Part shown: positions 1 through 18,845 of the stretch, in pieces
Layout of the letters: the number at the start of each line of letters is the position of its first letter
Position numbering within the stretch: the stretch's first letter is position 1
DNA from: a virus
Virus record (IMG/VR): IMGVR_UViG_3300013383_000091
Length of the DNA stretch: 18,845 nt
Strand: one strand, 5' to 3'
Program-made: the position numbers and the translations under genes
The notes under the pieces: generated by a model
What the model was told of the DNA's origin: nothing
Database searches by the model: none
What the model saw: the letters and a program-made list of their open reading frames with translations, nothing else

Positions 1-188
1 GGTGGGAGGCATGGGCGTTTGGGAATTTTTTCCCAATCTGTTTTTTATTTGTGTTTTTTGTTTTTTGCTTTTTGTTGTTTTTTTTGGTTCTAATCATTTT
101 GTTATCTCCTTTGTTTTCTATTTATTATGATACCACGTTTTTTATTTTCCGCACGGCGTGTTTAAAAAAATTGCCGTATTTTTTTTGT

Positions 189-234
189 TACGGTTACGTA
201 ACCGTAGGTCATATAGGCTAATGACCATTAGCCT
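189..234. promoter_or_regulatory. Two palindromes upstream of the ITR promoter (candidate operator or origin-protein binding sites)
   Basis: TACGGTTACGTAACCGTA (189..206) is a perfect 18-bp palindrome. AGGCTAATG-AC-CATTAGCCT (215..234) has 9-bp arms. Both lie 65-110 bp upstream of the candidate -10. Function is inferred. Confidence 0.4.
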
Positions 235-275
235 TGTTTCGGGAATATTCGTTCTCTTTTTTCGGCGTGTCGCGC

Positions 276-304
276 TTGTTTTGTTTCTAAGTTTGTTGTA
301 TATT
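276..304 (+). promoter_or_regulatory. Candidate early promoter of the left ITR
   Basis: -35 TTGTTT (276..281), 17-nt spacer, -10 TATATT (299..304). It lies ~45 nt upstream of the first ITR gene in an AT-rich leader. The match was judged by eye only. Confidence 0.4.
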
Positions 305-351
305 TATTTATGTCAGCAAAGGTTGCTGGCGAAGTTAGGGAAGGTTGCACA

Positions 352-549
352 ATGCTGAATATCAATATGGCTACCGCTAGGGATTACGTCGAAAACTACA
401 TCACCAACAGCGGCATGGACGTTTCCGACTATTGCATCGATCAGGCGGCATCCGACCTTGTGGACTACGTGGACACTTACGGCGTTGACGGCTATGATGG
501 CGTCCCGTCCGATGAATTCACGGATATCGTGGCACAATCTGCTCGCTGA
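352..549 (+). CDS. Hypothetical very acidic 65-aa early protein (ITR copy 1)
   Basis: ATG at 352 is preceded by GGGAAGG (338..344) with a 7-nt spacer; stop TGA at 547..549. The product has 11 Asp + 2 Glu versus 2 Arg and a recurring (V/S)DY motif. The longer track ORF from 310 has no RBS. An identical copy lies at 18297..18494. Confidence 0.7.
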   Translation: MLNINMATARDYVENYITNSGMDVSDYCIDQAASDLVDYVDTYGVDGYDGVPSDEFTDIVAQSAR

Positions 550-565
550 AAGAGAGGATCATATC

Positions 566-811
566 ATGGCAACGAAGAATGTGGCTCGCTTTATCATTTG
601 GAATGACGGCTATAGGCTTGAAATGTTCAATGCGGGGGATGATGTCGATGTTTCGCTGGACGGTGTTCAGCCGCTTGCGAGAATGTTGAAGGGCATTATC
701 GACGTGGCTCAGACTCGCTACCCGCATCATACCATTGAGCTGAATCGTGCGAAGTTCTGCGAGGAAGAGGTTGGTAAGCCGTTTCTCGTGGGTGTGGTGA
801 GTATCGTATGA
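566..811 (+). CDS. Hypothetical 81-aa early protein (ITR copy 1)
   Basis: ATG at 566 is preceded by GAGAGGA (552..558) with a 7-nt spacer; stop TGA at 809..811. The track ORF from 458 overlaps the previous gene and lacks an RBS. An identical copy lies at 18035..18280. Confidence 0.7.
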   Translation: MATKNVARFIIWNDGYRLEMFNAGDDVDVSLDGVQPLARMLKGIIDVAQTRYPHHTIELNRAKFCEEEVGKPFLVGVVSIV

Positions 812-870
812 CGCCGCGCAAGGGGCGTCCCTGCCGCCTGTATGACGTTCGGATTGACGATGGTGACTGA
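808..870 (+). pseudogene. 20-codon remnant of the third right-end early gene, cut by the ITR boundary
   Basis: An ATGA stop/start overlap occurs at 808..811, exactly as at the right end (18035..18038). Codons 1-4 (MTPR) match the 81-aa gene 17793..18038. The sequence then diverges at the ITR edge and stops after 20 codons (MTPRKGRPCRLYDVRIDDGD). Confidence 0.4.
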
Positions 871-4635: not shown

Positions 4636-4663
4636 GTCACCATATTATAGTGACATGGCTATT
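4627..4663 (-). other. Perfect 14-bp hairpin enclosing the tail lysin start codon, with TATAAT in the loop
   Basis: AATAGCCATGTCAC (4627..4640) pairs with GTGACATGGCTATT (4650..4663). The 9-nt loop reads TATAATATG on the minus strand. The ATG at 4633..4635 lies inside the stem, and no SD precedes it. Confidence 0.6.
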
Positions 4664-4679
4664 GCTGTTATGTGATTTC

Positions 4680-6206
4680 CTAGAAGCCTGCCGGTACTAC
4701 AAGAGAGCCGGAGAGAATGCCCGTCGCGTCCATATTGGCGGTGTTTTGTACGCTAAGTGTGCTGCCATCCAGTGCTGTAAAGCACTTGCCGTCATAGGAC
4801 GGGAAGTATTGCGGATTCCCGACAGCAGCCCACGAGGGGAGCTTGAAGACGCGGTTCCCGTTGGCCGGTTTAGTGGTGTAGTTGCACTTGTATCCAATAT
4901 ACAGCATACCGTCGCGCTCGAAGATGTTAACGTAATCCCATGTGCCGAGAATCTGCGAAGCGTCAGGCATACCGTAGTTTGTCGGCCACAGATCGCAATT
5001 GGCTGCAACACAATGCGCAATCCAATTGCCGGCAAGAGCGTAGCCAGAGCGGTTGAGGTGTGCGCCGTCACCGTCATCGCCGCCACCTTCGCCCTGAGAG
5101 GCCACTACGCCAATGCGGTAGCCACCTTCATGGATGCGGACGTAATCATAGCCGCAGTCTTTGAGGTTTAAGGTCAGGACACGGTAGACGCCGAGACGGT
5201 CTGATCGATTGGTGCCATGTGTCTTGTTTTGCGTCAACGTCTGCCCTACTGCCAAGGTCATGGGGCATACGTGGATTTCAGCATTGGGGGCGTCGCTGTG
5301 GATGGATTCCATGAGATTGCGTGCTCTGTTCATCACAAACGCTTCGGTGGTCTTGTTTTGTGCAATGCCTGTCGCGTCGTTTTGTCCTCCAATGATGATT
5401 ACAGCGGAAACCTTGTCTTTGTCTGGCACGTCGTTCCAAATATCAATGAAACGTCCATCATCCCCTATGACGGCGAAGCCTCCAGCCGAAGATCCCTTGT
5501 AGTAAAAACGAGTCGGATTGAGCCGGTTTTTGATAGCGACGGCGGGCGATTCGTCGATATGCTTCGCGCCGGAATAGTATCCATCCACCCAACTGTCACC
5601 CAATACCACGACATAGTCCTTGAGCTTTGCCGGTACGCTGGCCAATTCGAGAGCTTCCGTGGCTTCGGTGCTAGCCTTGTCCCACTTTGTCCTTGCGGCT
5701 ATAGCTTTGTCCGTGGTTTCGGAGCCTAGTGCTGTCAATGCCGATTTGGAGGCGGTTGCGTCCGTGCCGGCCTTATCCCACTTGGCCTTGGAGGCGCTGG
5801 CTTCATCTACGGTTTCTGTGCCGAGTGCGGCTAATGCCGCGCCATTCATGGCCGCGTCCGTGCCGGCCTTATCCCACTTGGCCTTGGAGGCGCTGGCTTC
5901 ATCTGCGGTTTCCGTGCCGAGTGCGGCTAATGCCGCACCATTCATGGCCGCGTCCGTACCCGCCTTGTCCCATTTGGTCTTGGCTGCTTTGGCGGCGTCC
6001 ACGGTATTGTCTCCCGTCAGTGTTTTCAGTACTTCCGTGTCGTGCGTGTCGGTCGCTTCGAGGGTTTCGATGCGGTTCAAATGCTTGCCGAGCGTATCGT
6101 CGATGGTATGCATTGAATCGTTGTAGCCGTCGCGCAAGTCGGCGGGGTCATCGTCCCCATAGAGATTCAACCCATAATTGTTGGTTTTCGTGTAGGTGGT
6201 TGCCAT
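4680..6206 (-). CDS. Tail fibre/appendage protein: N-terminal anchor motif, 32-aa tandem-repeat stalk, SGNH/GDSL esterase domain, C-terminal putative receptor-binding domain
   Basis: 508 aa. It carries 3.5 repeats of KWDKAGTDAAMNGAALAALGTETxDEASASKA. SGNH blocks are present: VVLGDSW (block I), GGQND (block III), DGAHLN (block V). Its position corresponds to phi29 gene 12 (appendage). Confidence 0.85.
   Translation of the reverse strand: MATTYTKTNNYGLNLYGDDDPADLRDGYNDSMHTIDDTLGKHLNRIETLEATDTHDTEVLKTLTGDNTVDAAKAAKTKWDKAGTDAAMNGAALAALGTETADEASASKAKWDKAGTDAAMNGAALAALGTETVDEASASKAKWDKAGTDATASKSALTALGSETTDKAIAARTKWDKASTEATEALELASVPAKLKDYVVVLGDSWVDGYYSGAKHIDESPAVAIKNRLNPTRFYYKGSSAGGFAVIGDDGRFIDIWNDVPDKDKVSAVIIIGGQNDATGIAQNKTTEAFVMNRARNLMESIHSDAPNAEIHVCPMTLAVGQTLTQNKTHGTNRSDRLGVYRVLTLNLKDCGYDYVRIHEGGYRIGVVASQGEGGGDDGDGAHLNRSGYALAGNWIAHCVAANCDLWPTNYGMPDASQILGTWDYVNIFERDGMLYIGYKCNYTTKPANGNRVFKLPSWAAVGNPQYFPSYDGKCFTALDGSTLSVQNTANMDATGILSGSLVVPAGF
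5637..5975. repeat. In-frame 96-bp tandem repeats (3.5 units) inside the tail fibre gene
   Basis: Units 5758..5853 and 5854..5949 differ at only 3 of 96 positions. Flanking units are progressively diverged. Confidence 0.9.
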
Positions 6207-8741: not shown

Positions 8742-10979
8742 TCAGTAGACGATGCCGTCCAACGGCGCGTTGTCCGCGTAATCGGTGACGCCTATCTTGC
8801 TTGGGTCAGTCCATACGGTGACGCCGCTCTCAAAAATACCTTTGATGGTGAGCCGGTACTCCTCCGGGCACGTGGAACTTCTCACATACAGCTCATGCAC
8901 CTTCCAATATGTGAAATTAGACATTGCCATAAGATTCGCCGGCAACATCATGAAGCGCTGGACGTAATACCCGTATCTCAACCACACCTCTCCGATACTT
9001 CGCATTGCGGCGGGCGTGATCTGGCGGAAGCGTACAAGCACGCCGATCAGACCGTTGGCAAGGTTGAAGCTATCGCCGCCCAATGCGCCGGACGTGGTGG
9101 GCGCAACCGTCTGCGTCTGTTGCACTTGGGCGTTGATGCCGGCTATGGTGTTCTCGTAATCGCCTTTTGCGGTGGCCTGTGCGAGCGCGCGGTTCATATC
9201 AGCGAGTTGCATGGTCTGCGAGTTGGAGAGATTCGTAGACGCCAAGGCATAGGCGTTGGCCTGTGAAGTGGTGGCATTGTTCGTGGCTGTCTGATTCGCT
9301 AATTGCGTGTTGGCCGTGTCCACGTTGTTCTGGTAGGTCTGATCATTCGCCCATGCGCCGATGGCCGCACCGGCCACCGCGCCGACCGCGCCGCCGACGT
9401 TGCCGCCTGCGAGATTGCCCAACGCGTTCGCCGCGCCGCTTCCGATGGTATTAAGTTGGCTCATGGAGTTGCTGAAGCTCAGGTTTTTCAGCGTAAGATC
9501 GTTGCCCATTTGCGCGGAAGTGTTTGAAATGCTGTTCATGGCGTTGCGGTTGGACGTGGCCAAACGATTCGCGGCACTCGAATAGCTGGTGCCGACTTCG
9601 GCGGCGCGATACGCGTTGTTGATGCCCATTTGCGTTTTCTGCTGTGTCCAGTCGGCCGACTTGCGGGCATATGCGCGCGTGTACGAGCTGTTCGCCAATG
9701 CTAGTGCGGAGCCGTTGTTGACGGCCATGAAGGTGGGGAAATTCGTCGTACCGAAGGCGGCGTTCAACATTTCGCCGCTATCGATGGGTAGCCCAAGATC
9801 ATTCGCAAGCGGGGAACGCTGGGAGAGAGCGGAGGCATGATAGCCGCGAGCGTAGAAGTTCAGGCGGGGGGACGGTGGCGCGTAATCCCACGATTCCCTG
9901 ATCACTAAATCATTCGACGGTACCTGTTCCGGCTCGTATGTGATCACATCGCCGTTCAGGCATGAGCACTCCACATAGGAGTATGGCGCGGTGCGGAATT
10001 TTTTTAGGTATTTGTAGCGGTCTGGTAATTTGAAGTTGTCGCGGAAGTTTTTGATGGTGATGATGTCCGTATAGCGTGAATCGGACTTGCCGGTGCGCAC
10101 GCGCATCCGATAGCACTTGCCGTGCCAATCAACGCCGGTTTTGAATGCGGTGTTGACCGACTCCTGTTTTTCCAAGAGTCTCGCCGGCAATGGGGGGACG
10201 GCGTAGATGCCGCAGATCCCTTGTGTGACCCATGGGTAATCCGCGCCGGCCGCAAGCAGTGCGCCCAAGTCGGTTGCCACCGTGAGATAATAGACGGCGG
10301 TGCCGTTCAGGTGGCTCTCGAATGCGCCGCCGTCCGCCGTGGTGGTCTTGGGTGCGCTCTCGGTGCCGGGGTCGGCTTCGAGCTGGGTGGTGCTGACCAC
10401 GATCACGCCAAAATCATATTGCGTGCCATTCTCACTCACCGGGATAAGCGACTTGTATTGTTCGCCGGCGATAACAGTGGTTTTACCGGTGTCCAAGCCT
10501 TCCGGCAAATCGAGATATTCACGACCATAATCCGCCCACTGGTTTTCATTCGCCACGCCGACGTGTCCGCGCTCCACGTAGGCGTTGCCGAGCGTTATGT
10601 TGAATTGAAAGCTCTGCCACACGTCGAGCTGGATGTTGAGTTGCGTGGTCTGCGCGTTGACGTAATCGACCGTCTGAATGAAGTAATACCAGCTGCGAGG
10701 CGTGTCAAAATCGTATTCGTTGGTGGCCACAAGGTAGTTGTATTTGGACGCTTGGGCGAACGGCACGGGGACGCGCACGGGTAGACCGTATTTCGCCATG
10801 GTGCACCCCTTGAATTCAAGACCGTCGAGCGAATCGAAATAATCCTGTTGCGCCTTTTCGTCCACGAAGCGCACGATATCCCTATATCCCATATCCCATG
10901 TGACGTTACAGAGTTTGAATGTCGTGCTCGGTGGCCATTTCGCATAGCTGAAGTTGACGGGTAGATCATTGGCACTCAT
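8742..10979 (-). CDS. Tail knob / distal tube protein, phi29 gp9-like
   Basis: 745 aa from the ATG at 10979 (RBS AAAGGAA 6 nt upstream). YNYLVATNEYDF...WYYFIQTVDYVNAQTTQLNIQLDVWQSF...YVERGHV parallels remembered gp9 SYIMFQNADYGNKWFYAFVTELEF...FEIDVLQTWMF...IVREHV. A Gly/Ala-rich hydrophobic loop (GGNVGGAVGAVAGAAIGAW) and the C-terminal YGYYVQR...GVTVWTD also parallel gp9. Confidence 0.9.
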   Translation of the reverse strand: MSANDLPVNFSYAKWPPSTTFKLCNVTWDMGYRDIVRFVDEKAQQDYFDSLDGLEFKGCTMAKYGLPVRVPVPFAQASKYNYLVATNEYDFDTPRSWYYFIQTVDYVNAQTTQLNIQLDVWQSFQFNITLGNAYVERGHVGVANENQWADYGREYLDLPEGLDTGKTTVIAGEQYKSLIPVSENGTQYDFGVIVVSTTQLEADPGTESAPKTTTADGGAFESHLNGTAVYYLTVATDLGALLAAGADYPWVTQGICGIYAVPPLPARLLEKQESVNTAFKTGVDWHGKCYRMRVRTGKSDSRYTDIITIKNFRDNFKLPDRYKYLKKFRTAPYSYVECSCLNGDVITYEPEQVPSNDLVIRESWDYAPPSPRLNFYARGYHASALSQRSPLANDLGLPIDSGEMLNAAFGTTNFPTFMAVNNGSALALANSSYTRAYARKSADWTQQKTQMGINNAYRAAEVGTSYSSAANRLATSNRNAMNSISNTSAQMGNDLTLKNLSFSNSMSQLNTIGSGAANALGNLAGGNVGGAVGAVAGAAIGAWANDQTYQNNVDTANTQLANQTATNNATTSQANAYALASTNLSNSQTMQLADMNRALAQATAKGDYENTIAGINAQVQQTQTVAPTTSGALGGDSFNLANGLIGVLVRFRQITPAAMRSIGEVWLRYGYYVQRFMMLPANLMAMSNFTYWKVHELYVRSSTCPEEYRLTIKGIFESGVTVWTDPSKIGVTDYADNAPLDGIVY

Positions 10980-10998
10980 ATGTCGTTCCTTTCGATAT

Positions 10999-11036
10999 GG
11001 AAAATAGGATGCAGTGTTATCGCACTGCATCCTATT
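10999..11036 (-). terminator. Leaky rho-independent terminator after the major capsid gene
   Basis: A 14-bp perfect stem pairs 11003..11016 with 11023..11036, with a 6-nt loop. UUUUCC follows on the minus strand. It lies immediately upstream of the tail knob RBS. Confidence 0.6.
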
Positions 11037-11057
11037 CTAGTAGGCCGCTTCCGCCTG

Positions 11058-12785
11058 TCAGGCGGTGACGGTGACGTTGTGCGAAGCGGTCACGCCGGCG
11101 AATTTCGCGGTGACGGCCACGGCACTTGCGTTGGCCGTTTCGCCGGTGACTACGCCGGTTGGTGAGACGGTGGCGTTCTCGCCGCTTGCCCAAGTGGCGA
11201 GTTTGGTCACGTCTTCGGTGTTGCCGTCGTTCTTGGTGACGATGGCTTTCAGGCTGATATTCTGACCGACCTTGACGGTGCTTGCGCCTTGCACTTCGAG
11301 CTTGGTGATCGCGCCGGATTTGAATCCGCCTACCCATGTTCCGACCACCGGCACCGCAAGGGATGCGGAAATGGTCTGGTCGATTTCCGGCGTGCTTGGG
11401 TTGATGTACGTGGCCTGTGCGGTGACGGTGATCGTGTCGGCGGTTTCGTCAAGGCCGCACCGGATGATGCCGTCGTTATCCACCGAAGTAAACTGGGAGC
11501 TTGCACCGGTGAGCTTGTAGGTGATGCCGACCGGCTGGAAGCTTGCGCTTGCCTTGTTGTCGCTCGAAATATCGGACACAACCTGAACCAAGTCTCCACG
11601 GTACACGTTCTGCGGGGTGGCGCTGTTTTCACCGTATTTCTTGAGCCTGATCTGGAATACCGGCTTCGACGTGGTGAGCGTATCCGGGAGCGTGACGGAA
11701 TCGGTGGAGCCGGTGCCAGTCCAGAAGAGCACCGCATTGGAGAACGGGTTCGGGGTGACGCTACCCCTGTGCTTGTAGAATATGTTGCGCGTGCCGTCGA
11801 TGGGGTTGACGGGGCTGTTGGTGGTTTCCAACATCTCATCCCAGCAGAAGAAGAAGTCTTCCGTGGTGAGAATGGCCTGCACCTTGCCTTCGGTGCCGCC
11901 AATGCCAAACATATCCTCAGGAATGGGGATGATGCGATAGGGCACGTTGGCGCGGTCGATGTTGAACGCGGCCGCCAATGCTTCGACGTTCAGGGCGGCG
12001 ATCACCTGCGGCGTGGCGAAGAGAATGGCTTCACTGTCACGCCATGGAGTGACCCAGCTCATGGCGTTGTAGCGGGGCATGGCCGACATAGGGGATGCCT
12101 TGAGTTCGTTCGCGGTCTGCTGGATGAGACGAAGAAGATTCTTTGCGTCCGTTTCGGTGGAATTGGCCGCGCCCACGTCGGCGGTATGCACGCGCCAAAA
12201 TCCGCCCTTGCGCGCGTATTCCGCGAAACACTGCGTCTTCATGACATACATATCATTACGGTCGCTCAAAATCGGCGCGTTCATGATCTCGGCAATGTAA
12301 TCCGACATGCCGCTTTCCCCGTCGAAAGCCGTCAGCAAAGCGTCTTCCGGGATGGTGACGGGGTAGTAGTGATCGAACGTGAGCGGGTGGAACACACTCG
12401 CAGTTGGCACGTTGTAACGCCCGTACACGTCATCGCCCAAGTACTCCTTATTGAAATTACGGGTGCGAGCCTGTACGAGGCCGACCGCCGCCTGCTCGTA
12501 GGTGGAGCCGTAGCGCTTCAGTGTGCGCGGGGAGCCGATCAGCCTCAAGGGGTCATCCCAGTCCGCGTGCTGGACATAGAGCCCGATCAGGCGCTGAATG
12601 AGTACGCCGGTGAATTCATCGCGCAGATACGGAAAATTGCGCATGGTGTCCACGGCGTTCCTGATGTTGCCCTGTGTTGCGGCGGGGATACGGGTCTGGA
12701 ATTGCGGTGAGGTGGCGTTGCGCACGGCGTTGAAGATCTCAACGTCCCCCTTGCCGGCGAGCGGCCTTACATTGGTATCGGTCAT
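11058..12785 (-). CDS. Major capsid protein, phi29 gp8-like, with C-terminal Ig-like (Big_2-type) domains
   Basis: 575 aa. RBS AGGAAGGA lies 7 nt upstream. VEIFNAVRNA..., DEFTGVLIQRLIG, ALLTAFDGESGMSDYIAEIMNAP and LNVEALAAAFNIDRANV parallel remembered gp8 segments. The last ~85 aa (KLEVQGASTVKVGQNISLKAIV...VTAKFAGVTASHNVTVTA) is Big_2-like, preceded by a second Ig-like segment. Confidence 0.92.
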   Translation of the reverse strand: MTDTNVRPLAGKGDVEIFNAVRNATSPQFQTRIPAATQGNIRNAVDTMRNFPYLRDEFTGVLIQRLIGLYVQHADWDDPLRLIGSPRTLKRYGSTYEQAAVGLVQARTRNFNKEYLGDDVYGRYNVPTASVFHPLTFDHYYPVTIPEDALLTAFDGESGMSDYIAEIMNAPILSDRNDMYVMKTQCFAEYARKGGFWRVHTADVGAANSTETDAKNLLRLIQQTANELKASPMSAMPRYNAMSWVTPWRDSEAILFATPQVIAALNVEALAAAFNIDRANVPYRIIPIPEDMFGIGGTEGKVQAILTTEDFFFCWDEMLETTNSPVNPIDGTRNIFYKHRGSVTPNPFSNAVLFWTGTGSTDSVTLPDTLTTSKPVFQIRLKKYGENSATPQNVYRGDLVQVVSDISSDNKASASFQPVGITYKLTGASSQFTSVDNDGIIRCGLDETADTITVTAQATYINPSTPEIDQTISASLAVPVVGTWVGGFKSGAITKLEVQGASTVKVGQNISLKAIVTKNDGNTEDVTKLATWASGENATVSPTGVVTGETANASAVAVTAKFAGVTASHNVTVTA

Positions 12786-13163: not shown

Positions 13164-13306
13164 AAAACTGTCTTATGAGAGTGCGGGTTGATGCCGTAAG
13201 GCCGGCATACCACATGCACGAAATGTCACGATGGGCGGCGTTTTCAGCCGTGGTTGTCCCGTCGCGTTTCTCCTAGTCGGCTATCGGCACTCCGAAGACA
13301 CGCATA

Positions 13307-14767
13307 TTATAGCATGACGGGTGTACCGTAATCGTCCATGACCTCCACGCCATGACGGAATTGATCGTAGGGGATGGGACGCCGGAAGAGGTTGCCGGCC
13401 ATGACCACATCCACGCCGCCGTCAGTCCGCCACCCTTGATAGCGGTTCAGGGCGAGTATGGTCACTTTGTCATATTCGGCGCTGATCTTCCATTTCCCTA
13501 ATTCTGTCGGATGCAATGCGCACGCCTTGGGCGGTTCATGGCCTAAAAGTATGCACCCGTCCGTGTTCGCATATATCAGTCGGCCGGCGTTCGCTCGGCA
13601 TACGCCGATCAGTCGGCGGCGGGCGTAGGCGTTGACCCACATTGGCACTGGGAGATAGTCGGTTTTTAGGGTTGATTCGTCGCGTGTGGCGGGAGCCCAT
13701 TCCAAGGTTTTCCCGTCCGTGCTTTTTGGCATGAGCACCGCGCCTTTGGGGAGTGCGGCCATTTTGCCTACAAGAGCGTTCATGATGAGTTTCGCCATTT
13801 GACGCCTGTTGCCTGTCTCGCGCTGTTTTCGGGTGCCCCATTCGTCCACAAAGCCGGTGAAAAAGCCTTTGGACTGGCGGAATTTCCACCCGCCAAGACG
13901 GCGATAGATCGACACGTCGTAATTCTCTTCAAGCAATCTTTGGTCGATGTCGGTGAGCGTCATGGTGATGTATCCGTGCGTGCTGGTTAGTCGGGTCGCG
14001 CCACGTGTCAAGGTGTGCCCGTCGCTCAAAAAGGGGTAGCCGTCCGGCTTGAGGTCGGCACGGAAGGTCATGGTATCCGCGTGCAATGGCATGTCACTGT
14101 CAGGCTTGTATTCGCCGTCATAATGTTCCGGTGTCCCGTATGGTAAAAATTCGTCTCGTAGTATGGATGGGTACATGCTGTTGCAATCGATGTCGATGGC
14201 TGCACCCCAATGCCCTTCCTTGGCGGTCATGAAGCCGCCGATATATCCGCCGTGCAGCGTCTTTTTCGTCTCGGATTCGAGCTGGGGGAAGCGGCTTAGG
14301 TACCATGGGTAATCGCCGCCGTGATAGGCGCTCATGCTTGCCGCGCCGGCCGTGATCTTCGCCAGTCCCGCGTGTTCGTACATGCGTAGGATGTCCAAGA
14401 GTTGCGTGTCCGTGTTATCGTCTTCGTCCAAGGTGACGCGGTAGCCGTCCCTCAGCAGATTGGACACTTCATGGAATTTCAGCCAATTATCCTTGTCGAT
14501 CATGACGGAAAACATGAAGAAACGGCCGGTTTTCGACACTATCGCGTCCCAGCTCATGTAGGCGCGGTGCTGATTGTGGGGCATGTGCGCGGTCACGTGC
14601 GCCATGAAGCCCGACAGTACGCTTGGGTCGCTCACGTATACCATAGTCTTACCGCCTGTCGTGGCGTGCGCCAATAAGGCGGTGGGCGTCGTATCCGGCC
14701 ATATGGTGCGGTCGGTGAAGCGTATGATGTTGTCCGCGCACCATAGACCGATATGTTCTCGTGTCAT
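13307..14767 (-). CDS. Protein-primed family B DNA polymerase (phi29 gp2-like), compact and motif-divergent
   Basis: 486 aa from the ATG at 14767; the track TTG start is 3 codons upstream. Motif A is DIDCNSMYPS...LPYGTP. Motif B is KLIMNALVGK. Motif C is IYANTDG. The TPR1/TPR2-equivalent insertions align with remembered phi29 sequence. See the finding on exonuclease motifs. Confidence 0.93.
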   Translation of the reverse strand: MTREHIGLWCADNIIRFTDRTIWPDTTPTALLAHATTGGKTMVYVSDPSVLSGFMAHVTAHMPHNQHRAYMSWDAIVSKTGRFFMFSVMIDKDNWLKFHEVSNLLRDGYRVTLDEDDNTDTQLLDILRMYEHAGLAKITAGAASMSAYHGGDYPWYLSRFPQLESETKKTLHGGYIGGFMTAKEGHWGAAIDIDCNSMYPSILRDEFLPYGTPEHYDGEYKPDSDMPLHADTMTFRADLKPDGYPFLSDGHTLTRGATRLTSTHGYITMTLTDIDQRLLEENYDVSIYRRLGGWKFRQSKGFFTGFVDEWGTRKQRETGNRRQMAKLIMNALVGKMAALPKGAVLMPKSTDGKTLEWAPATRDESTLKTDYLPVPMWVNAYARRRLIGVCRANAGRLIYANTDGCILLGHEPPKACALHPTELGKWKISAEYDKVTILALNRYQGWRTDGGVDVVMAGNLFRRPIPYDQFRHGVEVMDDYGTPVML

Positions 14768-14788: not shown

Positions 14789-15730
14789 TCAGGCGAGTTC
14801 CTTGGCGAGTTTCAGAAACCCCTCGAAACTCTGGCGTGCGCGTGCGTGCGCGGTGCTGTCCTGTCCGAAACGTGACGTGATTTTCCCGGTGGGTGATTCC
14901 ACCCAGTTGAAGACGGTTTGCGCCACGTCGGTTTGCTCGATCAGCGCGCGTTTCCGCGCCGTGGAGAGTTGGCGGAATCGCTTCAGTCGTTTGGAGCCTA
15001 CGGACGCGGCGATGGCCTTTTCGAATGCGGCGTAGCGGTTCGCTCTCATATATTTCGGCCACGTGCCCTGATCATAGGGTTGCCCACTGCGTCCCGTCTT
15101 GGTGGCGGTGGGCTCTCTGCCGACCTTGTGGCCGAGCATGGCCGCGGTTTCGCGGATGTCCCTGATCAATTCCTTGCGGTGGCCTGATTCCAGCTGGCTC
15201 ATGACATATGCCCTGTCCTGTAGTGTATTGGTCATGCGCAAAAAGTCGGTGAGCTTGCTGTCTGTGATCTGAGCGCTCTCGTAGGCGTCTCCGGTGGTGC
15301 CGGCCAATTCCGCTTGACGGCGTTCCAGAACACTTTGTTTCGGCAATGCCTGTACTTTGTTCCATTCCGCTATCTTCGCTTGCGCCGTCCTGATCTTACG
15401 CTGCTGTTGGCGCAACAGTTTGCGTCGTTTTGCCACGGGTTCGGCGGCGATCTGCTGATCGGTGATGGGGGCGCGACTGGCGAGCATCCTGTCTTTGCTT
15501 GTGGGCTTTTCGACGGCGCTTGGATGCCATTCGGTTTTTGCGGCCGTGTTGATGGCCTGTTGTTTCTGCTGTTCCCATTCGCGGCCGAGCGTGTTGGCGA
15601 TGTTGGCAAGCTGTTTGTCGGCGGTTTTCGCGAGATTGCCGGTGGAGTACACGCCAAGTTGCTTGATGTTGCGCGCCATGCGAGCCTGTGCGGCCTGTTT
15701 CGCCTTGACGTGCCGCTGTTTCTTCGCCAT
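14789..15730 (-). CDS. Putative terminal protein (replication primer)
   Basis: 313 aa, basic and Lys/Arg/Gln-rich. It lies immediately upstream of the polymerase gene, as TP genes do in phi29-like phages. RBS AAGGCGG lies 7 nt upstream. No motif was recognised, so function is inferred from position only. Confidence 0.6.
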   Translation of the reverse strand: MAKKQRHVKAKQAAQARMARNIKQLGVYSTGNLAKTADKQLANIANTLGREWEQQKQQAINTAAKTEWHPSAVEKPTSKDRMLASRAPITDQQIAAEPVAKRRKLLRQQQRKIRTAQAKIAEWNKVQALPKQSVLERRQAELAGTTGDAYESAQITDSKLTDFLRMTNTLQDRAYVMSQLESGHRKELIRDIRETAAMLGHKVGREPTATKTGRSGQPYDQGTWPKYMRANRYAAFEKAIAASVGSKRLKRFRQLSTARKRALIEQTDVAQTVFNWVESPTGKITSRFGQDSTAHARARQSFEGFLKLAKELA

Positions 15731-15819: not shown

Positions 15820-16275
15820 TCACTTGGTCGGCTTCGCTTCGCCGTCGTTCTCGACGGGTTCGATACTGAAGAACTTGAAGCCGCGACGGGAGCGACGTTC
15901 CACGACCTTGATGGCGAGCGGTTCAGCCCACGTGTCGGGCGTGCCGAAAATGCCGAACATGGTGTTGAGTCCGGCCGCGAGGGTGGGGCTTGTGGCGGCG
16001 TAGGCGGTGCCGTCTTCGGACACAATGATCACGCGGACGGTGTTTGAAATTTCGCCCGTCTGATCGTCGGTGACCTGTACGGCCTGTGCGATGGCGTTGA
16101 CCATGTCGATCTGCTCGTTGAGGTGTTCGTCAAGCTTGACGGCGTTCTGGAGTGCCGCGTACAGCCTGATCTTGCCCTCACGGGTGGAAGTGTCGATGAA
16201 GTGCTGGACGGTGCCGAGCGTGGTGTTTTCGGTGTTGAAGGCCACGATCTCGGTGTTGGCGGTGTTGTTTTCCAT
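15820..16275 (-). CDS. Hypothetical early protein, possibly a phage SSB
   Basis: 151 aa from the ATG at 16275 (RBS GAAAGG 9 nt upstream). The pattern VRVIIVSEDGTAYAATSPTLAAGLNTMFGIFGTPDTW...IKVVERRSRRGFKFFSIE resembles the lactococcal/staphylococcal phage SSB family as I remember it. It sits upstream of TP and polymerase. The functional call is weak. Confidence 0.55.
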   Translation of the reverse strand: MENNTANTEIVAFNTENTTLGTVQHFIDTSTREGKIRLYAALQNAVKLDEHLNEQIDMVNAIAQAVQVTDDQTGEISNTVRVIIVSEDGTAYAATSPTLAAGLNTMFGIFGTPDTWAEPLAIKVVERRSRRGFKFFSIEPVENDGEAKPTK

Positions 16276-16334
16276 GATGTTCAACCTTTCTTAGTTGTTT
16301 GTTTCGAGCTTTTGCTCTAAAATTTTTTATAGTC

Positions 16335-16631
16335 TTACTCGTTGTTTTTTTCAAGCTCGGCGTGTCGCTTATGTTCACCCGGTTCCCACGGTTGCGGCGC
16401 GTCAAAAACCGCATTGCCGTAAAAATCTTTTTCCGACATGTGCACACGTTGGCTCATGATGTGGATGGTGCGCGGAATGAAGTTCGGCCACAGTTTCTTG
16501 GCGCGTGCGGCATAGGCTTCACGGCTGTTCATGCGGCCGTCCACGACATGTTTGCAGGCCATAAAATCGCCGTCCACAAGCTCCATGCCCTCTACGACGG
16601 CGTAGACGCGGGTTCTGACGATATCGGACAT
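16335..16631 (-). CDS. Hypothetical early protein (98 aa)
   Basis: ATG at 16631 with RBS AAGAGG 6 nt upstream. It follows the stop of the preceding gene closely. No similarity was recognised. Confidence 0.6.
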   Translation of the reverse strand: MSDIVRTRVYAVVEGMELVDGDFMACKHVVDGRMNSREAYAARAKKLWPNFIPRTIHIMSQRVHMSEKDFYGNAVFDAPQPWEPGEHKRHAELEKNNE

Positions 16632-16643
16632 TTGCAACCTCTT

Positions 16644-17303
16644 TCACTCGAATTTTTTCATACTATCTTCAGTATAGCGTTTTAAATCAAGCTTGTCAAA
16701 ATTTTTAAAAACCGCGGTTATGACATTCAGCGCCTTACGGGACGAAAACAACATGCAACAGTCATACGATTCCGCGCCCTTGACGGCGCACACGGCACAC
16801 CACGCCACAAGATTCGCCACATCGATATCACCGTCAAGAAACCCGATGTCATACGTGGCACTCAACGCGGGAGCCAGACTTGACTCAGGCTTCAAAGTCC
16901 GGCAAATACGGCACGCTTCAAGCACGCCACGGTTGAAATAGGCGTTATCCGCGCCACTGTACAATTCACACAACATGGTCACGGAACGACATAACGTCTC
17001 ATAATCGCCCTTGCCATAATCCAGATCGCGCACGCCGGCCACACGTTCCCAGCCCTTAAGCGCCTTCTGGACGCGCGACGTTTCCATGACGCCGTCATCG
17101 TACCGGCGCAAGCGTGGTATGGGCGTAAATTCATCCTCGCCAAGTGATTCGTCCCACAGATGCCCCATTGTCGTAAAACCTCTCTTCAATCCGATAGTAG
17201 GCGATACGCCGGCCAGTATCCAGATCAGCGTATCGCCATATGGTGCGCTCGGCTTCGCCATATGATTCGCCGTGGCCGATTTCAACAGGCTCTCGGCTAT
17301 CAC
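16644..17303 (-). CDS. Hypothetical early protein (Cys-rich, up to 219 aa; start uncertain)
   Basis: Long ORF with a codon-position GC pattern like other genes here. Candidate starts are GTG 17303 (no RBS), ATG 17261 (no RBS) and ATG 17168 (RBS AAGAGAGG 10 nt upstream). No similarity was recognised. Confidence 0.55.
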   Translation of the reverse strand: MIAESLLKSATANHMAKPSAPYGDTLIWILAGVSPTIGLKRGFTTMGHLWDESLGEDEFTPIPRLRRYDDGVMETSRVQKALKGWERVAGVRDLDYGKGDYETLCRSVTMLCELYSGADNAYFNRGVLEACRICRTLKPESSLAPALSATYDIGFLDGDIDVANLVAWCAVCAVKGAESYDCCMLFSSRKALNVITAVFKNFDKLDLKRYTEDSMKKFE

Positions 17304-17339
17304 ATGGTATGGCGAGCGCGGTAAAAACGGTGCGCATGG

Positions 17340-17549
17340 TCAGAATTCCAGACTGCTTTCATGTTCTTCGATCTTGGCGTCATGCCCCAGCACCCACGAT
17401 GTGTGCCACACGTCTTCACGTGGACACCGGTAGGGAGCGTAATAGCTGATACCGCGATACCCCGCCCAATAGGCTCGCAAAGTCCAGTACCGCGTGGCGC
17501 GATAGCAGTCACCGCACCACCAAGAGTGCACCCAGTCCCAAAAATACAT
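17340..17549 (-). CDS. Hypothetical Trp/Tyr-rich early protein (69 aa)
   Basis: ATG at 17549 with GAAGGTGA upstream, overlapping the previous stop. Third-position GC is about 65 percent, as in confident genes. 7 Trp, 8 Tyr, and CGDC...RCP. The track TTG start at 17564 is less likely. Confidence 0.5.
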   Translation of the reverse strand: MYFWDWVHSWWCGDCYRATRYWTLRAYWAGYRGISYYAPYRCPREDVWHTSWVLGHDAKIEEHESSLEF

Positions 17550-17560
17550 GTGCTTCACCT

Positions 17561-17791
17561 TCAATCCCTTGCATCCAATGGCGTCCTAGCCAAGGCGTAG
17601 GCGTCAGACAGCATGATACCCAGCTCATCCGGCATGACGTCCGAATAGCATACCATACCGTCAAGCATATTGCCGTCATCCTTAATATTGTACTCCATGC
17701 GATAAGTGCGGGAATGAGGGCAATACCACATTTCGATCTTTCCGTGCTTGAATCTGGACGGGAACACCGCCACCATGTAATCATCCAACAT
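17561..17791 (-). CDS. Hypothetical early protein (76 aa)
   Basis: ATG at 17791 with RBS GGGAAGAGG 6 nt upstream. It is coupled to the previous gene (TGAAATG). Third-position GC is about 66 percent. Confidence 0.6.
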   Translation of the reverse strand: MLDDYMVAVFPSRFKHGKIEMWYCPHSRTYRMEYNIKDDGNMLDGMVCYSDVMPDELGIMLSDAYALARTPLDARD

Positions 17792-17792
17792 T

Positions 17793-18038
17793 TCAAACCT
17801 CTTCCCTAAAAGGGCTGTCCGCCCATTGCCGGGCGAATTTCAACATATCCATTGCATCAATGATCTTCATACCATCGTCAATGGCAAAGGCGTCGCATAT
17901 CCACGTCCAAGTCCAGCCGTCGATACACACCCAGAATTTGTAGTGCGGTATATCGCCGCCACGGTAGGCGTACCGGTATCGATAGGGGTAGCCGGTACGC
18001 CGATCATAGCGGGTAAAGCGCCCCATGCGCGGCGTCAT
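17793..18038 (-). CDS. Hypothetical Arg/Tyr/Trp-rich early protein (81 aa) whose first 4 codons lie inside the right ITR
   Basis: The ATG at 18038 overlaps the stop of the ITR gene (ATGA). The N-terminus is RFTRYDRRTGYPYRYRYAYRGGD. Only a truncated 20-codon version exists at the left end. Confidence 0.6.
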   Translation of the reverse strand: MTPRMGRFTRYDRRTGYPYRYRYAYRGGDIPHYKFWVCIDGWTWTWICDAFAIDDGMKIIDAMDMLKFARQWADSPFREEV

Positions 18039-18280
18039 ACGATACTCACCACACCCACGAGAAACGGCTTACCAACCTCTTCCTCGCAGAACTTCGCACG
18101 ATTCAGCTCAATGGTATGATGCGGGTAGCGAGTCTGAGCCACGTCGATAATGCCCTTCAACATTCTCGCAAGCGGCTGAACACCGTCCAGCGAAACATCG
18201 ACATCATCCCCCGCATTGAACATTTCAAGCCTATAGCCGTCATTCCAAATGATAAAGCGAGCCACATTCTTCGTTGCCAT
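18035..18280 (-). CDS. Hypothetical 81-aa early protein (ITR copy 2)
   Basis: Mirror image of 566..811; identical translation. Confidence 0.7.
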   Translation of the reverse strand: MATKNVARFIIWNDGYRLEMFNAGDDVDVSLDGVQPLARMLKGIIDVAQTRYPHHTIELNRAKFCEEEVGKPFLVGVVSIV

Positions 18281-18296
18281 GATATGATCCTCTCTT

Positions 18297-18494
18297 TCAG
18301 CGAGCAGATTGTGCCACGATATCCGTGAATTCATCGGACGGGACGCCATCATAGCCGTCAACGCCGTAAGTGTCCACGTAGTCCACAAGGTCGGATGCCG
18401 CCTGATCGATGCAATAGTCGGAAACGTCCATGCCGCTGTTGGTGATGTAGTTTTCGACGTAATCCCTAGCGGTAGCCATATTGATATTCAGCAT
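18297..18494 (-). CDS. Hypothetical very acidic 65-aa early protein (ITR copy 2)
   Basis: Mirror image of 352..549; identical translation. Confidence 0.7.
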   Translation of the reverse strand: MLNINMATARDYVENYITNSGMDVSDYCIDQAASDLVDYVDTYGVDGYDGVPSDEFTDIVAQSAR

Positions 18495-18541
18495 TGTGCA
18501 ACCTTCCCTAACTTCGCCAGCAACCTTTGCTGACATAAATA

Positions 18542-18570
18542 AATATACAACAAACTTAGAAACAAAACAA
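18542..18570 (-). promoter_or_regulatory. Candidate early promoter of the right ITR, likely driving the whole early operon
   Basis: Mirror of 276..304 (TTGTTT-17-TATATT). Confidence 0.4.
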
Positions 18571-18611
18571 GCGCGACACGCCGAAAAAAGAGAACGAATA
18601 TTCCCGAAACA

Positions 18612-18657
18612 AGGCTAATGGTCATTAGCCTATATGACCTACGGTTACGTAACCGTA
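18612..18657. promoter_or_regulatory. Right-ITR copies of the two palindromes
   Basis: AGGCTAATGGTCATTAGCCT (18612..18631) and TACGGTTACGTAACCGTA (18640..18657), mirroring 189..234. Confidence 0.4.
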
Positions 18658-18845
18658 ACAAAAAAAATACGGCAATTTTTTTAAACACGCCGTGCGGAAA
18701 ATAAAAAACGTGGTATCATAATAAATAGAAAACAAAGGAGATAACAAAATGATTAGAACCAAAAAAAACAACAAAAAGCAAAAAACAAAAAACACAAATA
18801 AAAAACAGATTGGGAAAAAATTCCCAAACGCCCATGCCTCCCACC

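What the first reader, a model, noticed from the sequence alone, without database searches (positions are those of the whole stretch)
13307..14767. Compact protein-primed DNA polymerase with no ExoI DxE motif and non-canonical residues in motifs B, C and KxY
Hand alignment to remembered phi29 polymerase is convincing across the polymerase domain (LPYGxP, KLxxNxLxGK, PMxVxxxAxAR, IYxxTDx, LGxW). The conserved residues deviate repeatedly. The N-terminal 190 aa contains no D-x-E at all; phi29 CDFETT aligns with CADNII. ExoII HNLKFDGAF aligns with SDPSVLSGF, so the Asp is lost. ExoIII Yx3D has no Tyr. Motif B NSLYG is NALVG (Tyr to Val). Motif C YCDTDS is YANTDG (first Asp to Asn, Ser to Gly). KxY is NRY. 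The ssDNA-binding SLxxh-like segment (EVSNLL) and overall exo-domain length are partly retained, about 55 aa shorter. This suggests a structurally kept but catalytically dead proofreading domain. A proofreading-deficient replicative pPolB would matter for mutation rate and for terminal-protein deoxynucleotidylation fidelity.
Basis: partly seen in the sequence, partly recalled or inferred. Interest (0 to 1): 0.7.

Follow-up and report, generated by a model that had tools for sequence, protein, structure and literature searches.

The report
Proofreading-dead compact phage DNA polymerase
A small gut Bifidobacterium phage, related to phi29, copies its linear genome with a shortened protein-primed DNA polymerase; the proofreading domain is still folded and conserved but has lost its catalytic residues, so the phage probably replicates without error correction.

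Summary
The window is a complete 18.8-kb phi29-like podophage genome with 827-bp inverted terminal repeats. Its closest isolates are Bifidobacterium phages BD811P1-3 and BP1.

ORF 13307-14767(-) encodes a 486-aa protein-primed family-B polymerase:
- Pfam PF03175 scores 80 bits.
- A family profile matches phi29 polymerase at E=3e-49.
- The AlphaFold model (pLDDT 95) superposes on phi29 polymerase over the whole chain (TM 0.82).

The N-terminal 135 aa are homologous to the phi29 exonuclease domain (HHalign 99.2%). They lack Glu14, Asp66, Lys143 and Tyr165 equivalents, because of substitutions and a ~30-aa deletion. Only the Asp169 equivalent (D120) clearly remains. The domain is under the same purifying selection as the polymerase domain (dN/dS 0.12 vs 0.11).

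NALVG, YANTDG and NRY are invariant in 121 relatives. The corresponding Asp456 and Lys498 are 117/117 in the nearest full-length relatives.

The trait defines an exclusive clade of 454-496-aa polymerases that includes the BadAztec phages. Av-1, Ayka and CH17P1 keep every motif.

Best reading: an active replicase whose dead exonuclease fold is kept as scaffold for terminal-protein binding and strand displacement. I found no report of this in tailed phages. Loss of activity and low fidelity are inferred, not measured.

The parts
13307..14767 (-). [quoted passage not shown]
   Evidence: ORF list and translation. Pfam PF03175 80.4 bits against a 25.8 cutoff. phi29 polymerase E=2e-35 and 2.9e-49. 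AF2 pLDDT 94.9 and Foldseek TM 0.82 to 1xhx.
14363..14767 (-). N-terminal exonuclease-like domain (aa 1-135): fold retained, active site lost
   Evidence: HHalign 99.2%, E=6e-20 to the phi29-like exonuclease-domain profile. dN/dS 0.117. No conserved carboxylate set across the compact clade.
14729..14749 (-). No D-x-E. D12 sits in the loop between strands 5-9 and 15-17 of the model.
   Evidence: Profile and MAFFT alignments place it on phi29 beta2 RVWAYGYM. DSSP of the model. D-G/D-N pattern in the wider clade.
14606..14638 (-). ExoII remnant YVSDPSVLSGF (aa 44-54). The Tyr59 equivalent (Y44) is invariant and F54 (at Phe69/Ile70, depending on the alignment) is near-invariant. The Asn62 position is variable. 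Asp66 is lost.
14450..14470 (-). EVSNLLR (aa 100-106) at the position of phi29's (S/T)Lx2h ssDNA-binding motif. N103 is invariant in 23/23 compact-clade sequences and R106 in 19/23.
14396..14416 (-). ExoIII remnant NTDTQLL (aa 118-124). D120 aligns with phi29 Asp169 and is retained. The Tyr165 and Lys143 segment is deleted just upstream.
   Evidence: D120 is invariant in 121 close relatives but not in the wider clade.
14165..14194 (-). Motif A DIDCNSMYPS (aa 192-201). Catalytic D194 (phi29 Asp249) and steric-gate Y199 (Tyr254) are conserved.
   Evidence: D194 invariant in 148 sequences.
13865..14152 (-). TPR1 insertion equivalent (aa ~206-301)
   Evidence: Continuous alignment to phi29 261-358. 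Secondary structure of the model.
13763..13792 (-). Motif B KLIMNALVGK (aa 326-335). phi29 Tyr390 is replaced by V333.
13685..13753 (-). TPR2 beta-hairpin equivalent (aa ~339-361)
   Evidence: Alignment to phi29 396-420. Strands 343-348 and 356-361 in the model.
13556..13573 (-). Motif C YANTDG (aa 399-404). The metal-ligand Asp458 equivalent D403 is kept. The first Asp (Asp456) is N401 and Ser459 is G404.
13439..13447 (-). KxY motif as NRY (aa 441-443). Lys498 is N441 and Tyr500 is kept as Y443.
13310..13390 (-). Shortened thumb (aa ~460-486). It lacks the C-terminal part of the phi29 thumb beta-hairpin.
   Evidence: Alignment. Model secondary structure.
14789..15730 (-). Candidate terminal protein (313 aa), immediately upstream of the polymerase gene
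   Evidence: The order SSB, this gene, polymerase is shared with BD811P2, BP1, BadAztec1 and metagenomic contigs, and matches the terminal-protein/polymerase order in phi29, Av-1 and Ayka. Identity as terminal protein is inferred: no Pfam, PHROG or PDB sequence match.
15820..16284 (-). phi29-type single-stranded-DNA-binding protein gene
   Evidence: Pfam PF17427 E=9e-18 and PHROG 6243.
1..827 (.). Left inverted terminal repeat (replication origin region of a protein-primed linear genome)
   Evidence: 827 nt, 100% complementary to 18019-18845.
18019..18845 (.). Right inverted terminal repeat

Best explanation
The gene encodes the phage's only DNA polymerase. It is a phi29-type protein-primed family-B replicase. 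It starts synthesis on the terminal protein encoded just upstream, at the 827-bp inverted terminal repeats, and copies the 18.8-kb linear genome by strand displacement.

The polymerase core is intact. It has the two metal-ligand aspartates D194 and D403, the steric-gate Tyr, motif-B Lys and Asn, and the TPR1 and TPR2 insertions.

The N-terminal domain descends from the DEDDy 3'-5' exonuclease domain and keeps its fold. It has lost the Glu14, Asp66, Lys143 and Tyr165 equivalents and about 50 residues, so it cannot carry out two-metal exonucleolysis.

I infer that the domain is kept as scaffold. In phi29 the same domain forms part of the downstream-template tunnel that gives strand displacement, and it also contacts the terminal protein.

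Without an editing site competing for the primer terminus, residues that stabilise the primer or nucleotide at the polymerase site have drifted or been remodelled. These are motif-B Tyr, KxY Lys, the first Asp and the Ser of motif C, and the Thr of Tx2GR.

The expected result is replication without proofreading, and possibly with relaxed base selection. An 18.8-kb genome may tolerate this.

What is shown: homology, fold, motif loss, clade-wide conservation and purifying selection. What is inferred: absence of exonuclease activity, the scaffold role, and the fidelity consequences.
For: Identity and context:
- phi29-type capsid, portal, tail knob, gp16 ATPase and SSB genes are present, with a single PF03175 polymerase.
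- Perfect 827-bp inverted terminal repeats.
- phi29 polymerase is the only strong PDB sequence hit and the best structural hit, TM 0.82-0.83 over the whole chain.

Dead exonuclease site:
- HHalign 99.2% to the exonuclease domain, with Asp66 on a gap and a ~30-aa deletion across phi29 ~130-165. MAFFT gives the same picture.
- No D-x-E in residues 1-190.
- No conserved carboxylate set across the 23 compact-clade sequences.
- phi29 needs Asp12, Glu14, Asp66 and Asp169, plus Tyr165 and Lys143 (PMC4974454).

Domain still functional:
- dN/dS is 0.117 against 0.105 for the polymerase domain.
- Equivalents of Tyr59 (Y44, invariant) and the IISRxGxWY segment containing Arg96 are retained, and F54 lies at Phe69/Ile70 depending on the alignment. 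In phi29, Arg96 contacts the terminal protein and Tyr59, His61 and Phe69 are reported essential for terminal-protein interaction (title cited in PMC1635332).
- In phi29 the exonuclease domain helps form the strand-displacement tunnel.

Polymerase likely active:
- D194 and D403 are invariant in 148 diverse sequences.
- piPolBs lack the first motif-C Asp and still polymerise efficiently (PMC7544198).
- Asp and Asn alternate at that site within the clade.
- BD811P1-3 and BP1, which carry the same enzyme type, are isolated, plaque-forming podophages.

Clade trait:
- 28 compact sequences form an exclusive clade on the polymerase domain alone.
- BadAztec1 polymerase is the best BFVD structural match.

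Fidelity hint:
- The phi29 Y390S mutant has a discrimination factor of only ~3x10^2 (PMC1976434).
Against: - No biochemical data exist for any member.
- I could not read the coordinates of the model. I therefore could not test whether the acidic residues conserved in the close family cluster into a rebuilt metal site. These are D12, D19, D74, D91-x-[D/E]93 and D120.
- The ExoI register is ambiguous. Profile alignment says beta1 is deleted. The model's three short N-terminal strands could instead be a shortened beta1-beta3, which would put D12 near the old ExoI position.
- If V333 behaved like phi29 Y390S in an enzyme without proofreading, the error load for 18.8 kb might be too high. Compensating changes are likely, so low fidelity is not established.
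- The NJ tree has no bootstrap support and is midpoint-rooted.
Confidence: 0.8

Rival explanations
1. The N-terminal domain is still an active 3'-5' exonuclease that uses a rebuilt, non-canonical set of acidic residues.
For: The close family keeps several invariant or near-invariant acidic residues in the domain: D12, D19, D74, D91, D120, and D/E at position 93. The domain is under strong purifying selection.
Against: None of these residues except the D-G turn residues is conserved in the wider compact clade. D74, D91 and D120 vary freely there. The segment carrying Lys143 and Tyr165 is deleted. D12 and D19 lie in loops between strands of the model and follow a D-G turn pattern. D91-x-D/E93 lies in the loop between strands 83-91 and 94-100. 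Purifying selection is equally well explained by a scaffold role.
Confidence: 0.07
2. The protein is a catalytically dead pseudo-polymerase and a host polymerase replicates the genome.
For: Three residues invariant or nearly so in the nearest full-length pPolBs are replaced: Asp456 to Asn, Lys498 to Asn and Ser459 to Gly. The Salas group counts Asp456 among three catalytic carboxylates (PMC1635332).
Against: The two metal-ligand aspartates named for phi29 (Asp249 and Asp458) are invariant here (D194, D403). piPolBs lack the first motif-C Asp and are efficient polymerases. dN/dS is 0.105 across the polymerase domain. Terminal-protein and SSB genes and long inverted terminal repeats are conserved. 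A linear terminal-protein-capped genome cannot readily be replicated by host machinery (established knowledge).
Confidence: 0.03
3. The exonuclease site is dead but replication fidelity is not reduced. Either the remodelled polymerase site is intrinsically more selective, or a host exonuclease or mismatch repair edits in trans. In that case the phage has no mutator phenotype.
For: Error-load argument (inference): an enzyme like Y390S with no proofreading would make too many errors per 18.8-kb genome. Many polymerase-site residues changed together, which could be compensation. Close relatives still share 90% protein identity with normal dN/dS.
Against: Pfam and PHROGs find no phage-encoded exonuclease or helicase, and no Walker-A motif was apparent on reading the unassigned early proteins. 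In phi29, loss of the aromatic ring at Tyr390 lowers discrimination. Trans-proofreading of a processive strand-displacing enzyme that encircles its DNA would be mechanistically awkward (inference).
Confidence: 0.3

Closest known systems
Bacillus phage phi29 DNA polymerase (gp2; PDB 1XHX, 2PYJ and others), the prototype protein-primed PolB
   Same: Same fold over the whole chain (TM 0.82-0.83). It shares motif A, the Lys/Asn/Gly of motif B, the second Asp of motif C, the Tyr of KxY, and TPR1 and TPR2. The gene context is the same: terminal protein upstream, an SSB gene, and phi29-type capsid, portal and packaging genes.
   Different: It is 89 aa shorter. ExoI, II and III are not functional (Glu14, Asp66, Tyr165 and Lys143 equivalents absent). 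Tyr390 is Val, Asp456 is Asn, Ser459 is Gly, Lys498 is Asn, Thr434 is Asn and His461 is Ile. The thumb hairpin and a palm loop are truncated. The inverted terminal repeats are 827 bp against 6 bp in phi29.
DNA polymerases of Bifidobacterium phages BD811P1-3, BP1 (59-64% identity) and BadAztec/BadAargau (34%)
   Same: Same compact exonuclease-less architecture and the same synteny. BadAztec1 polymerase is the best structural match in BFVD (TM 0.83-0.86, rmsd 2.7).
   Different: The window's enzyme is a new species-level member; its closest database protein is 90% identical. BadAztec keeps DTDS and a basic residue at the Lys498 position. The records annotate these simply as 'DNA polymerase'. The papers I could search do not mention the loss of the exonuclease motifs.
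Polymerases of Actinomyces phage Av-1, Curtobacterium phage Ayka and Hungatella phage CH17P1
   Same: These are the nearest isolated-phage relatives outside Bifidobacterium phages, with 28-33% identity in the polymerase domain.
   Different: They are 558-571 aa and keep DFETT, HNLxFDG, Yx3D, motif-B Tyr, DTDS, KxY and the full thumb.
Mavirus-type virophage pPolB and PLV pPolB-S1H
   Same: These are protein-primed PolBs that have lost exonuclease function (PMC11161782).
   Different: In them the exonuclease domain is mostly or wholly deleted, and the loss goes with gain of a helicase (S3H or fused S1H). Here the domain fold is retained under selection and no helicase is encoded. They belong to eukaryotic Varidnaviria, not tailed phages.
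Pol alpha, Pol zeta and archaeal PolB2/Dpo2 (RNA/DNA-primed PolBs with inactivated exonuclease domains)
   Same: The exonuclease fold is retained with its catalytic residues replaced. PolB2 and piPolB also lack the first motif-C Asp (PMC7544198).
   Different: They belong to a different PolB assemblage and are not protein-primed. Pol zeta is a translesion enzyme and Pol alpha an initiator working beside high-fidelity replicases, whereas this enzyme is the phage's sole replicase.

Membership tests
[quoted passage not shown] | Significant match to the family profile and to phi29 polymerase | tested here: met
   PF03175 80.4 bits against a 25.8 cutoff. phmmer E=2e-35 and profile E=2.9e-49 to 1xhx. 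Foldseek TM 0.82.
[quoted passage not shown] | TPR1 and TPR2 insertions specific to protein-primed PolBs | tested here: met
   Gap-poor alignment across phi29 261-358 and 398-420. Beta-hairpin 343-348/356-361 in the model.
[quoted passage not shown] | Polymerase metal-ligand aspartates (motif A Asp249, motif C Asp458) | tested here: met
   D194 and D403 are invariant in 148 sequences.
[quoted passage not shown] | Full motif signatures: Kx3NSxYG, YxDTDS, KxY | tested here: not met
   The motifs are NALVG, YANTDG and NRY. The canonical residues are 100-117 of 117 in the nearest full-length relatives.
[quoted passage not shown] | Linear genome with inverted terminal repeats and an adjacent terminal-protein gene | tested here: inconclusive
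   827-bp perfect inverted terminal repeats are present. The upstream 313-aa gene is syntenic with terminal-protein genes but has no detectable sequence similarity to any.
[quoted passage not shown] | Protein-primed initiation and processive strand displacement shown biochemically | not testable with these tools
   Needs purified polymerase and terminal protein.
DEDDy (DnaQ-like) 3'-5' proofreading exonuclease domain | Homologous fold | tested here: met
   HHalign 99.2%, E=6e-20. Whole-chain structural match to phi29.
DEDDy (DnaQ-like) 3'-5' proofreading exonuclease domain | Four metal-binding carboxylates (ExoI D-x-E, ExoII D, ExoIII D) | tested here: not met
   No D-x-E in residues 1-190. 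Asp66 falls on a gap, Leu or Val. Only the Asp169 equivalent D120 is kept.
DEDDy (DnaQ-like) 3'-5' proofreading exonuclease domain | Catalytic Tyr of ExoIII and auxiliary Lys of Kx2hxA | tested here: not met
   Both lie in the ~30-aa segment deleted in the whole compact clade. Their roles are described in PMC4974454.
phi29-like small podophages | phi29-type capsid, connector, tail knob, gp16 packaging ATPase, SSB, and a ~15-20 kb linear genome | tested here: met
   PF25622, PF05352, PF20934, PF05894 and PF17427. Genome of 18,845 bp.

The most novel reading that the evidence does not exclude
A whole, abundant clade of gut Bifidobacterium podophages may replicate with an obligately proofreading-free, minimal (~55 kDa) strand-displacing protein-primed polymerase. 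Its nucleotide and primer pocket is also remodelled: no motif-B Tyr, no KxY Lys, and Asn for the first motif-C Asp. On this reading these dsDNA phages have a constitutively high mutation rate, a natural mutator lifestyle. The enzyme would also be a naturally optimised exonuclease-minus scaffold of the kind that sequencing technologies now obtain by mutating phi29 polymerase.
Probability: 0.2. Interest if true: 0.75.

Novelty: new variant of a known kind. Interest (0 to 1): 0.55.

Why it matters
phi29 polymerase is the textbook accurate, self-sufficient replicase, and it is also a workhorse of DNA amplification and single-molecule sequencing.

A natural lineage that discarded proofreading but kept the exonuclease fold would separate that domain's two roles, editing and scaffold. 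The scaffold role covers terminal-protein binding and the strand-displacement tunnel.

It would also test how much fidelity a ~19-kb dsDNA virus needs.

It could give a compact exonuclease-minus enzyme that evolved to work that way. Exonuclease-minus phi29 mutants are required for sequencing by synthesis, and one abstract notes that the mutation has drawbacks (PMC10661337, seen).

These phages are common in human gut metagenomes: more than 200 90%-identity clusters, some with hundreds to more than a thousand member sequences. Their mutation rate therefore bears on Bifidobacterium-phage co-evolution.

Tried and rejected
- AlphaFold with the shallow family alignment (121 sequences, at least 62% identical) failed, with pLDDT 41. 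A diverse 148-sequence alignment was needed.
- Model coordinates are not exposed. I could not superpose residues on phi29 or measure clustering of carboxylates (one search shows only FASTA files).
- I looked for a separate phage-encoded exonuclease or helicase among all larger ORFs with Pfam and PHROGs. None was found.
- I tried to tie the 313-aa upstream protein to known terminal proteins by Pfam, PHROGs and a 6-sequence profile against the PDB. Nothing matched; the best E-value was 0.59 to an unrelated Cas7.
- I considered a mis-called start or a frameshift hiding ExoI. I rejected this because only 21 nt separate the upstream stop from the ATG and all relatives have the same length.
- I considered that the polymerase is a pseudo-enzyme, and rejected it (see rivals).
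- Literature searches for a prior description of exonuclease-less pPolBs in tailed phages found only virophage/PLV cases and RNA/DNA-primed PolBs.
- One MAFFT run timed out and was repeated with faster settings.
- The BP1 record gave no clean inverted terminal repeat for comparison. Its repeat arms are at 380-527 and 19316-19463, which suggests a shifted or incomplete end.
Full report
**1. What the window is**

The 18,845-bp window is a complete linear genome. Its ends are an 827-nt, 100% complementary inverted repeat.

Pfam finds phi29-type proteins:
- major capsid protein
- connector
- tail knob
- gp16 packaging ATPase
- holin
- CHAP/SH3 endolysin
- phi29-type SSB

At the DNA level the nearest records are Bifidobacterium phages BP1 and BD811P2, at 74-78% identity over 10-28% of the genome. 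Both were isolated on Bifidobacterium strains, and BP1 has podovirus morphology. The window is therefore a new species-level member of a group of gut Bifidobacterium podophages.

**2. The observation**

ORF 13307-14767(-) encodes 486 aa. The upstream 313-aa gene stops 21 nt before the ATG, and an AAGG lies about 10 nt upstream of it. All 120 listed relatives are 482-487 aa. The short N-terminus is therefore real.

Evidence that it is a phi29-type polymerase:
- PF03175 matches only residues 159-384.
- phmmer against the PDB finds only phi29 polymerase (E=2e-35, query 108-438 against phi29 155-495).
- A 121-sequence family profile raises this to E=2.9e-49.

Within those 121 relatives (62-90% identity), NALVG, YANTDG and NRY are invariant.

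I compared these positions in the 117 nearest full-length (530-640 aa) pPolBs from a 1.8-billion-protein representative search:

| phi29 residue | Conserved in 117 |
|---|---|
| Tyr390 | 100 |
| Asp456 | 117 |
| Ser459 | 115 |
| Lys498 | 117 |
| Asp12 | 105 |
| Glu14 | 103 |
| Asn62 | 110 |
| Asp66 | 108 |
| Tyr165 | 104 |
| Asp169 | 106 |

A systematic scan adds more changes:
- Thr434 to Asn (Tx2GR motif)
- His461 to Ile
- Glu486 to Ala/Ser
- Phe393 to Met
- Arg223 to His

**3. The N-terminal domain**

Sequence-to-profile searches do not reach it, but profile-profile comparison does. The N-terminal profile of the compact clade matches the exonuclease-domain profile of phi29-like enzymes with 99.2% probability (E=6e-20, query 13-175 against phi29 28-226). 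The close-family profile matches with 95.9% (query 3-164 against phi29 21-215).

In these alignments, and in independent MAFFT alignments:
- YVSDPSVLSGF lies on YFHNLKFDGAF. Asn62 becomes a variable D/N/A, and Asp66 falls on a gap or an aliphatic residue.
- About 30 residues corresponding to phi29 ~130-165 are absent. This removes Lys143 (Kx2hxA motif) and Tyr165.
- phi29 Asp169 aligns with D120. phmmer and hmmsearch agree.
- GLWCADN aligns with phi29 strand beta2 (RVWAYGYM), not with CDFETT. This implies the ExoI strand itself is missing.

The query has no D-x-E in its first 190 residues.

An AlphaFold model built with a diverse 148-sequence alignment is confident (pLDDT 94.9, pTM 0.93). Its best PDB matches are the nine phi29 polymerase chains (TM 0.79-0.83 over 546-573 aligned columns).

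The model has three short strands before the first helix (5-9, 15-17, 22-23). A miniature beta1-beta3 meander, with D12 near the old ExoI site, cannot be excluded. D12 and D19 lie in the loops between strands and follow a D-G/D-N turn pattern in the wider clade.

Under either register the Glu is missing. phi29 needs Asp12, Glu14, Asp66 and Asp169, plus Tyr165 and Lys143 (PMC4974454).

**4. The domain is not decaying**

I compared the window with a 90%-identical metagenomic relative (L008). dN/dS is 0.117 for residues 1-135 and 0.105 for residues 166-486.

The best-conserved pieces are:
- the Tyr59 equivalent (Y44, invariant), and F54 (near-invariant), which lies at Phe69/Ile70 depending on the alignment
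- the IVSKxGxFF segment, aligned with phi29 IISRMGQWY, which contains Arg96
- a clade-invariant N103-L-h-R106 motif, at the position of phi29's (S/T)Lx2h motif

In phi29, Arg96 contacts the terminal protein. The exonuclease domain, with TPR2, palm and fingers, forms the narrow tunnel that forces strand displacement (PMC4974454). Tyr59, His61 and Phe69 are reported essential for terminal-protein interaction (title cited in PMC1635332).

The genome encodes no helicase or separate exonuclease detectable by Pfam or PHROGs, and reading the unassigned early proteins showed no Walker-A motif. I infer that the fold is kept for these scaffold roles.

**5. The polymerase is probably active**

- D194 and D403 (phi29 Asp249 and Asp458, the catalytic carboxylates shown in the structure) are invariant across 148 diverse sequences.
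- The steric-gate Tyr, motif-B Lys/Asn/Gly, TPR1 and TPR2 are present.
- The Salas group counts the first motif-C Asp as a third catalytic carboxylate. However, piPolBs lack it and polymerise efficiently (PMC7544198). Within the compact clade the motif alternates between NTDG, DTDG and DTDS.
- Isolated phages with the same enzyme type replicate productively.

**6. Scope**

The representative search shows a set of 454-496-aa relatives at 25-44% identity. All of them lack ExoI-III and the motif-B Tyr and have the short thumb.

A neighbour-joining tree built on the polymerase domain alone puts all 28 compact sequences in an exclusive clade (no bootstrap). One distant member sits in the same SSB, terminal-protein-like gene, polymerase, capsid synteny.

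Among isolates, only Bifidobacterium phages have this type: BD811P1-3, BP1, and BadAztec/BadAargau from honeybee gut. BadAztec1 is the best BFVD structural match. Av-1, Ayka and CH17P1 keep every canonical motif.

About 13% of the 117 full-length neighbours also show degraded DEDD motifs, for example AYFLTT in P0159. Loss of the motif-B Tyr is associated with this (odds ratio 7, Fisher p=0.002, not corrected for phylogeny).

**7. Consequences (inferred)**

phi29 Y390S discriminates against wrong nucleotides only ~3x10^2-fold (PMC1976434). An aliphatic residue at this position in an enzyme without editing therefore suggests low fidelity. Taken literally, that would overload an 18.8-kb genome, so compensation by the other polymerase-site changes is likely. 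Fidelity has to be measured.

**8. Comparison with the literature**

- Inactivated exonuclease domains are known in Pol alpha, Pol zeta and PolB2.
- Among pPolBs, mavirus has only a remnant of the domain and PLV pPolB-S1H lacks it. Both losses go with a helicase gain. That paper states that the domain is otherwise conserved in family-B polymerases (PMC11161782).
- The 2024 review of phi29-like phages and the papers on BP1 and related isolates do not mention any loss.
- Targeted searches found no report for tailed phages.

I therefore class this as a new variant of a known kind. It is a real, clade-wide feature of moderate interest, and it still needs biochemical confirmation.

Noticed in passing
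window 1-827 and 18019-18845: The inverted terminal repeats are 827 bp and 100% identical, against 6 bp in phi29. Each arm carries an inward-reading 79-aa acidic ORF (310-549 + and 18297-18536 -), so this ORF is present twice per genome.
   Followed up: partly
window 41-87 (mirrored at 18759-18805): A T-rich tract with reiterated TTTTTTG/TTTTTGT units lies near each genome end, inside the terminal repeat. It might be an origin or DNA-binding-protein site. The extreme end reads GGTGGGAGG, with no obvious phi29-style terminal homopolymer.
   Followed up: no
L001 (BD811P2, OP172659) 10003-11340 and L002 (BP1, PQ571273) 13200-14615: The deposited polymerase CDSs are 445 and 471 aa. tblastn shows homology back to query residue 5-6 in both genomes. 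Their annotated starts are probably ~38 and ~12 codons too far downstream compared with the 482-487-aa family.
   Followed up: partly
proteins P0156, P0159, P0188, P0216, P0225, P0232, P0253: Several full-length (536-564 aa) metagenomic pPolBs outside the compact clade also lack a DxE at ExoI, for example AYFLTT in P0159. Loss of the exonuclease site in pPolBs may have happened several times independently.
   Followed up: partly
window 14450-14470 (aa 100-106 of the polymerase): N103 is invariant and R106 nearly so across the whole compact clade (motif N-L-h-R). They sit where phi29 has its (S/T)Lx2h ssDNA-binding motif. This clade-specific conserved motif has no assigned role.
   Followed up: no
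window 4680-6206 (-): A 508-aa tail-region protein carries a GDSL/SGNH esterase domain (PF00657, E=1e-8). BP1 has a pectate-lyase-like protein at the same position. It may be a receptor-modifying depolymerase or esterase that determines host range.
   Followed up: no
window 4624-4666: A 21-nt inverted repeat, 90% complementary with a 1-nt gap, spans the start of the 406-aa tail-lysin-like gene (3415-4635 -). It could be a regulatory hairpin or a terminator for the upstream gene.
   Followed up: no
window 16644-17303 (-) and neighbouring early ORFs 16335-18388: A 219-aa early protein and several 70-117-aa early proteins have no Pfam or PHROG match. None shows a Walker-A motif or nuclease signature on inspection.
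   Followed up: partly
window 11289-12710 (+): A 473-aa open frame runs antisense to the major capsid gene (11058-12785 -). It is most likely a by-product of G+C-rich coding sequence and not a gene.
   Followed up: no
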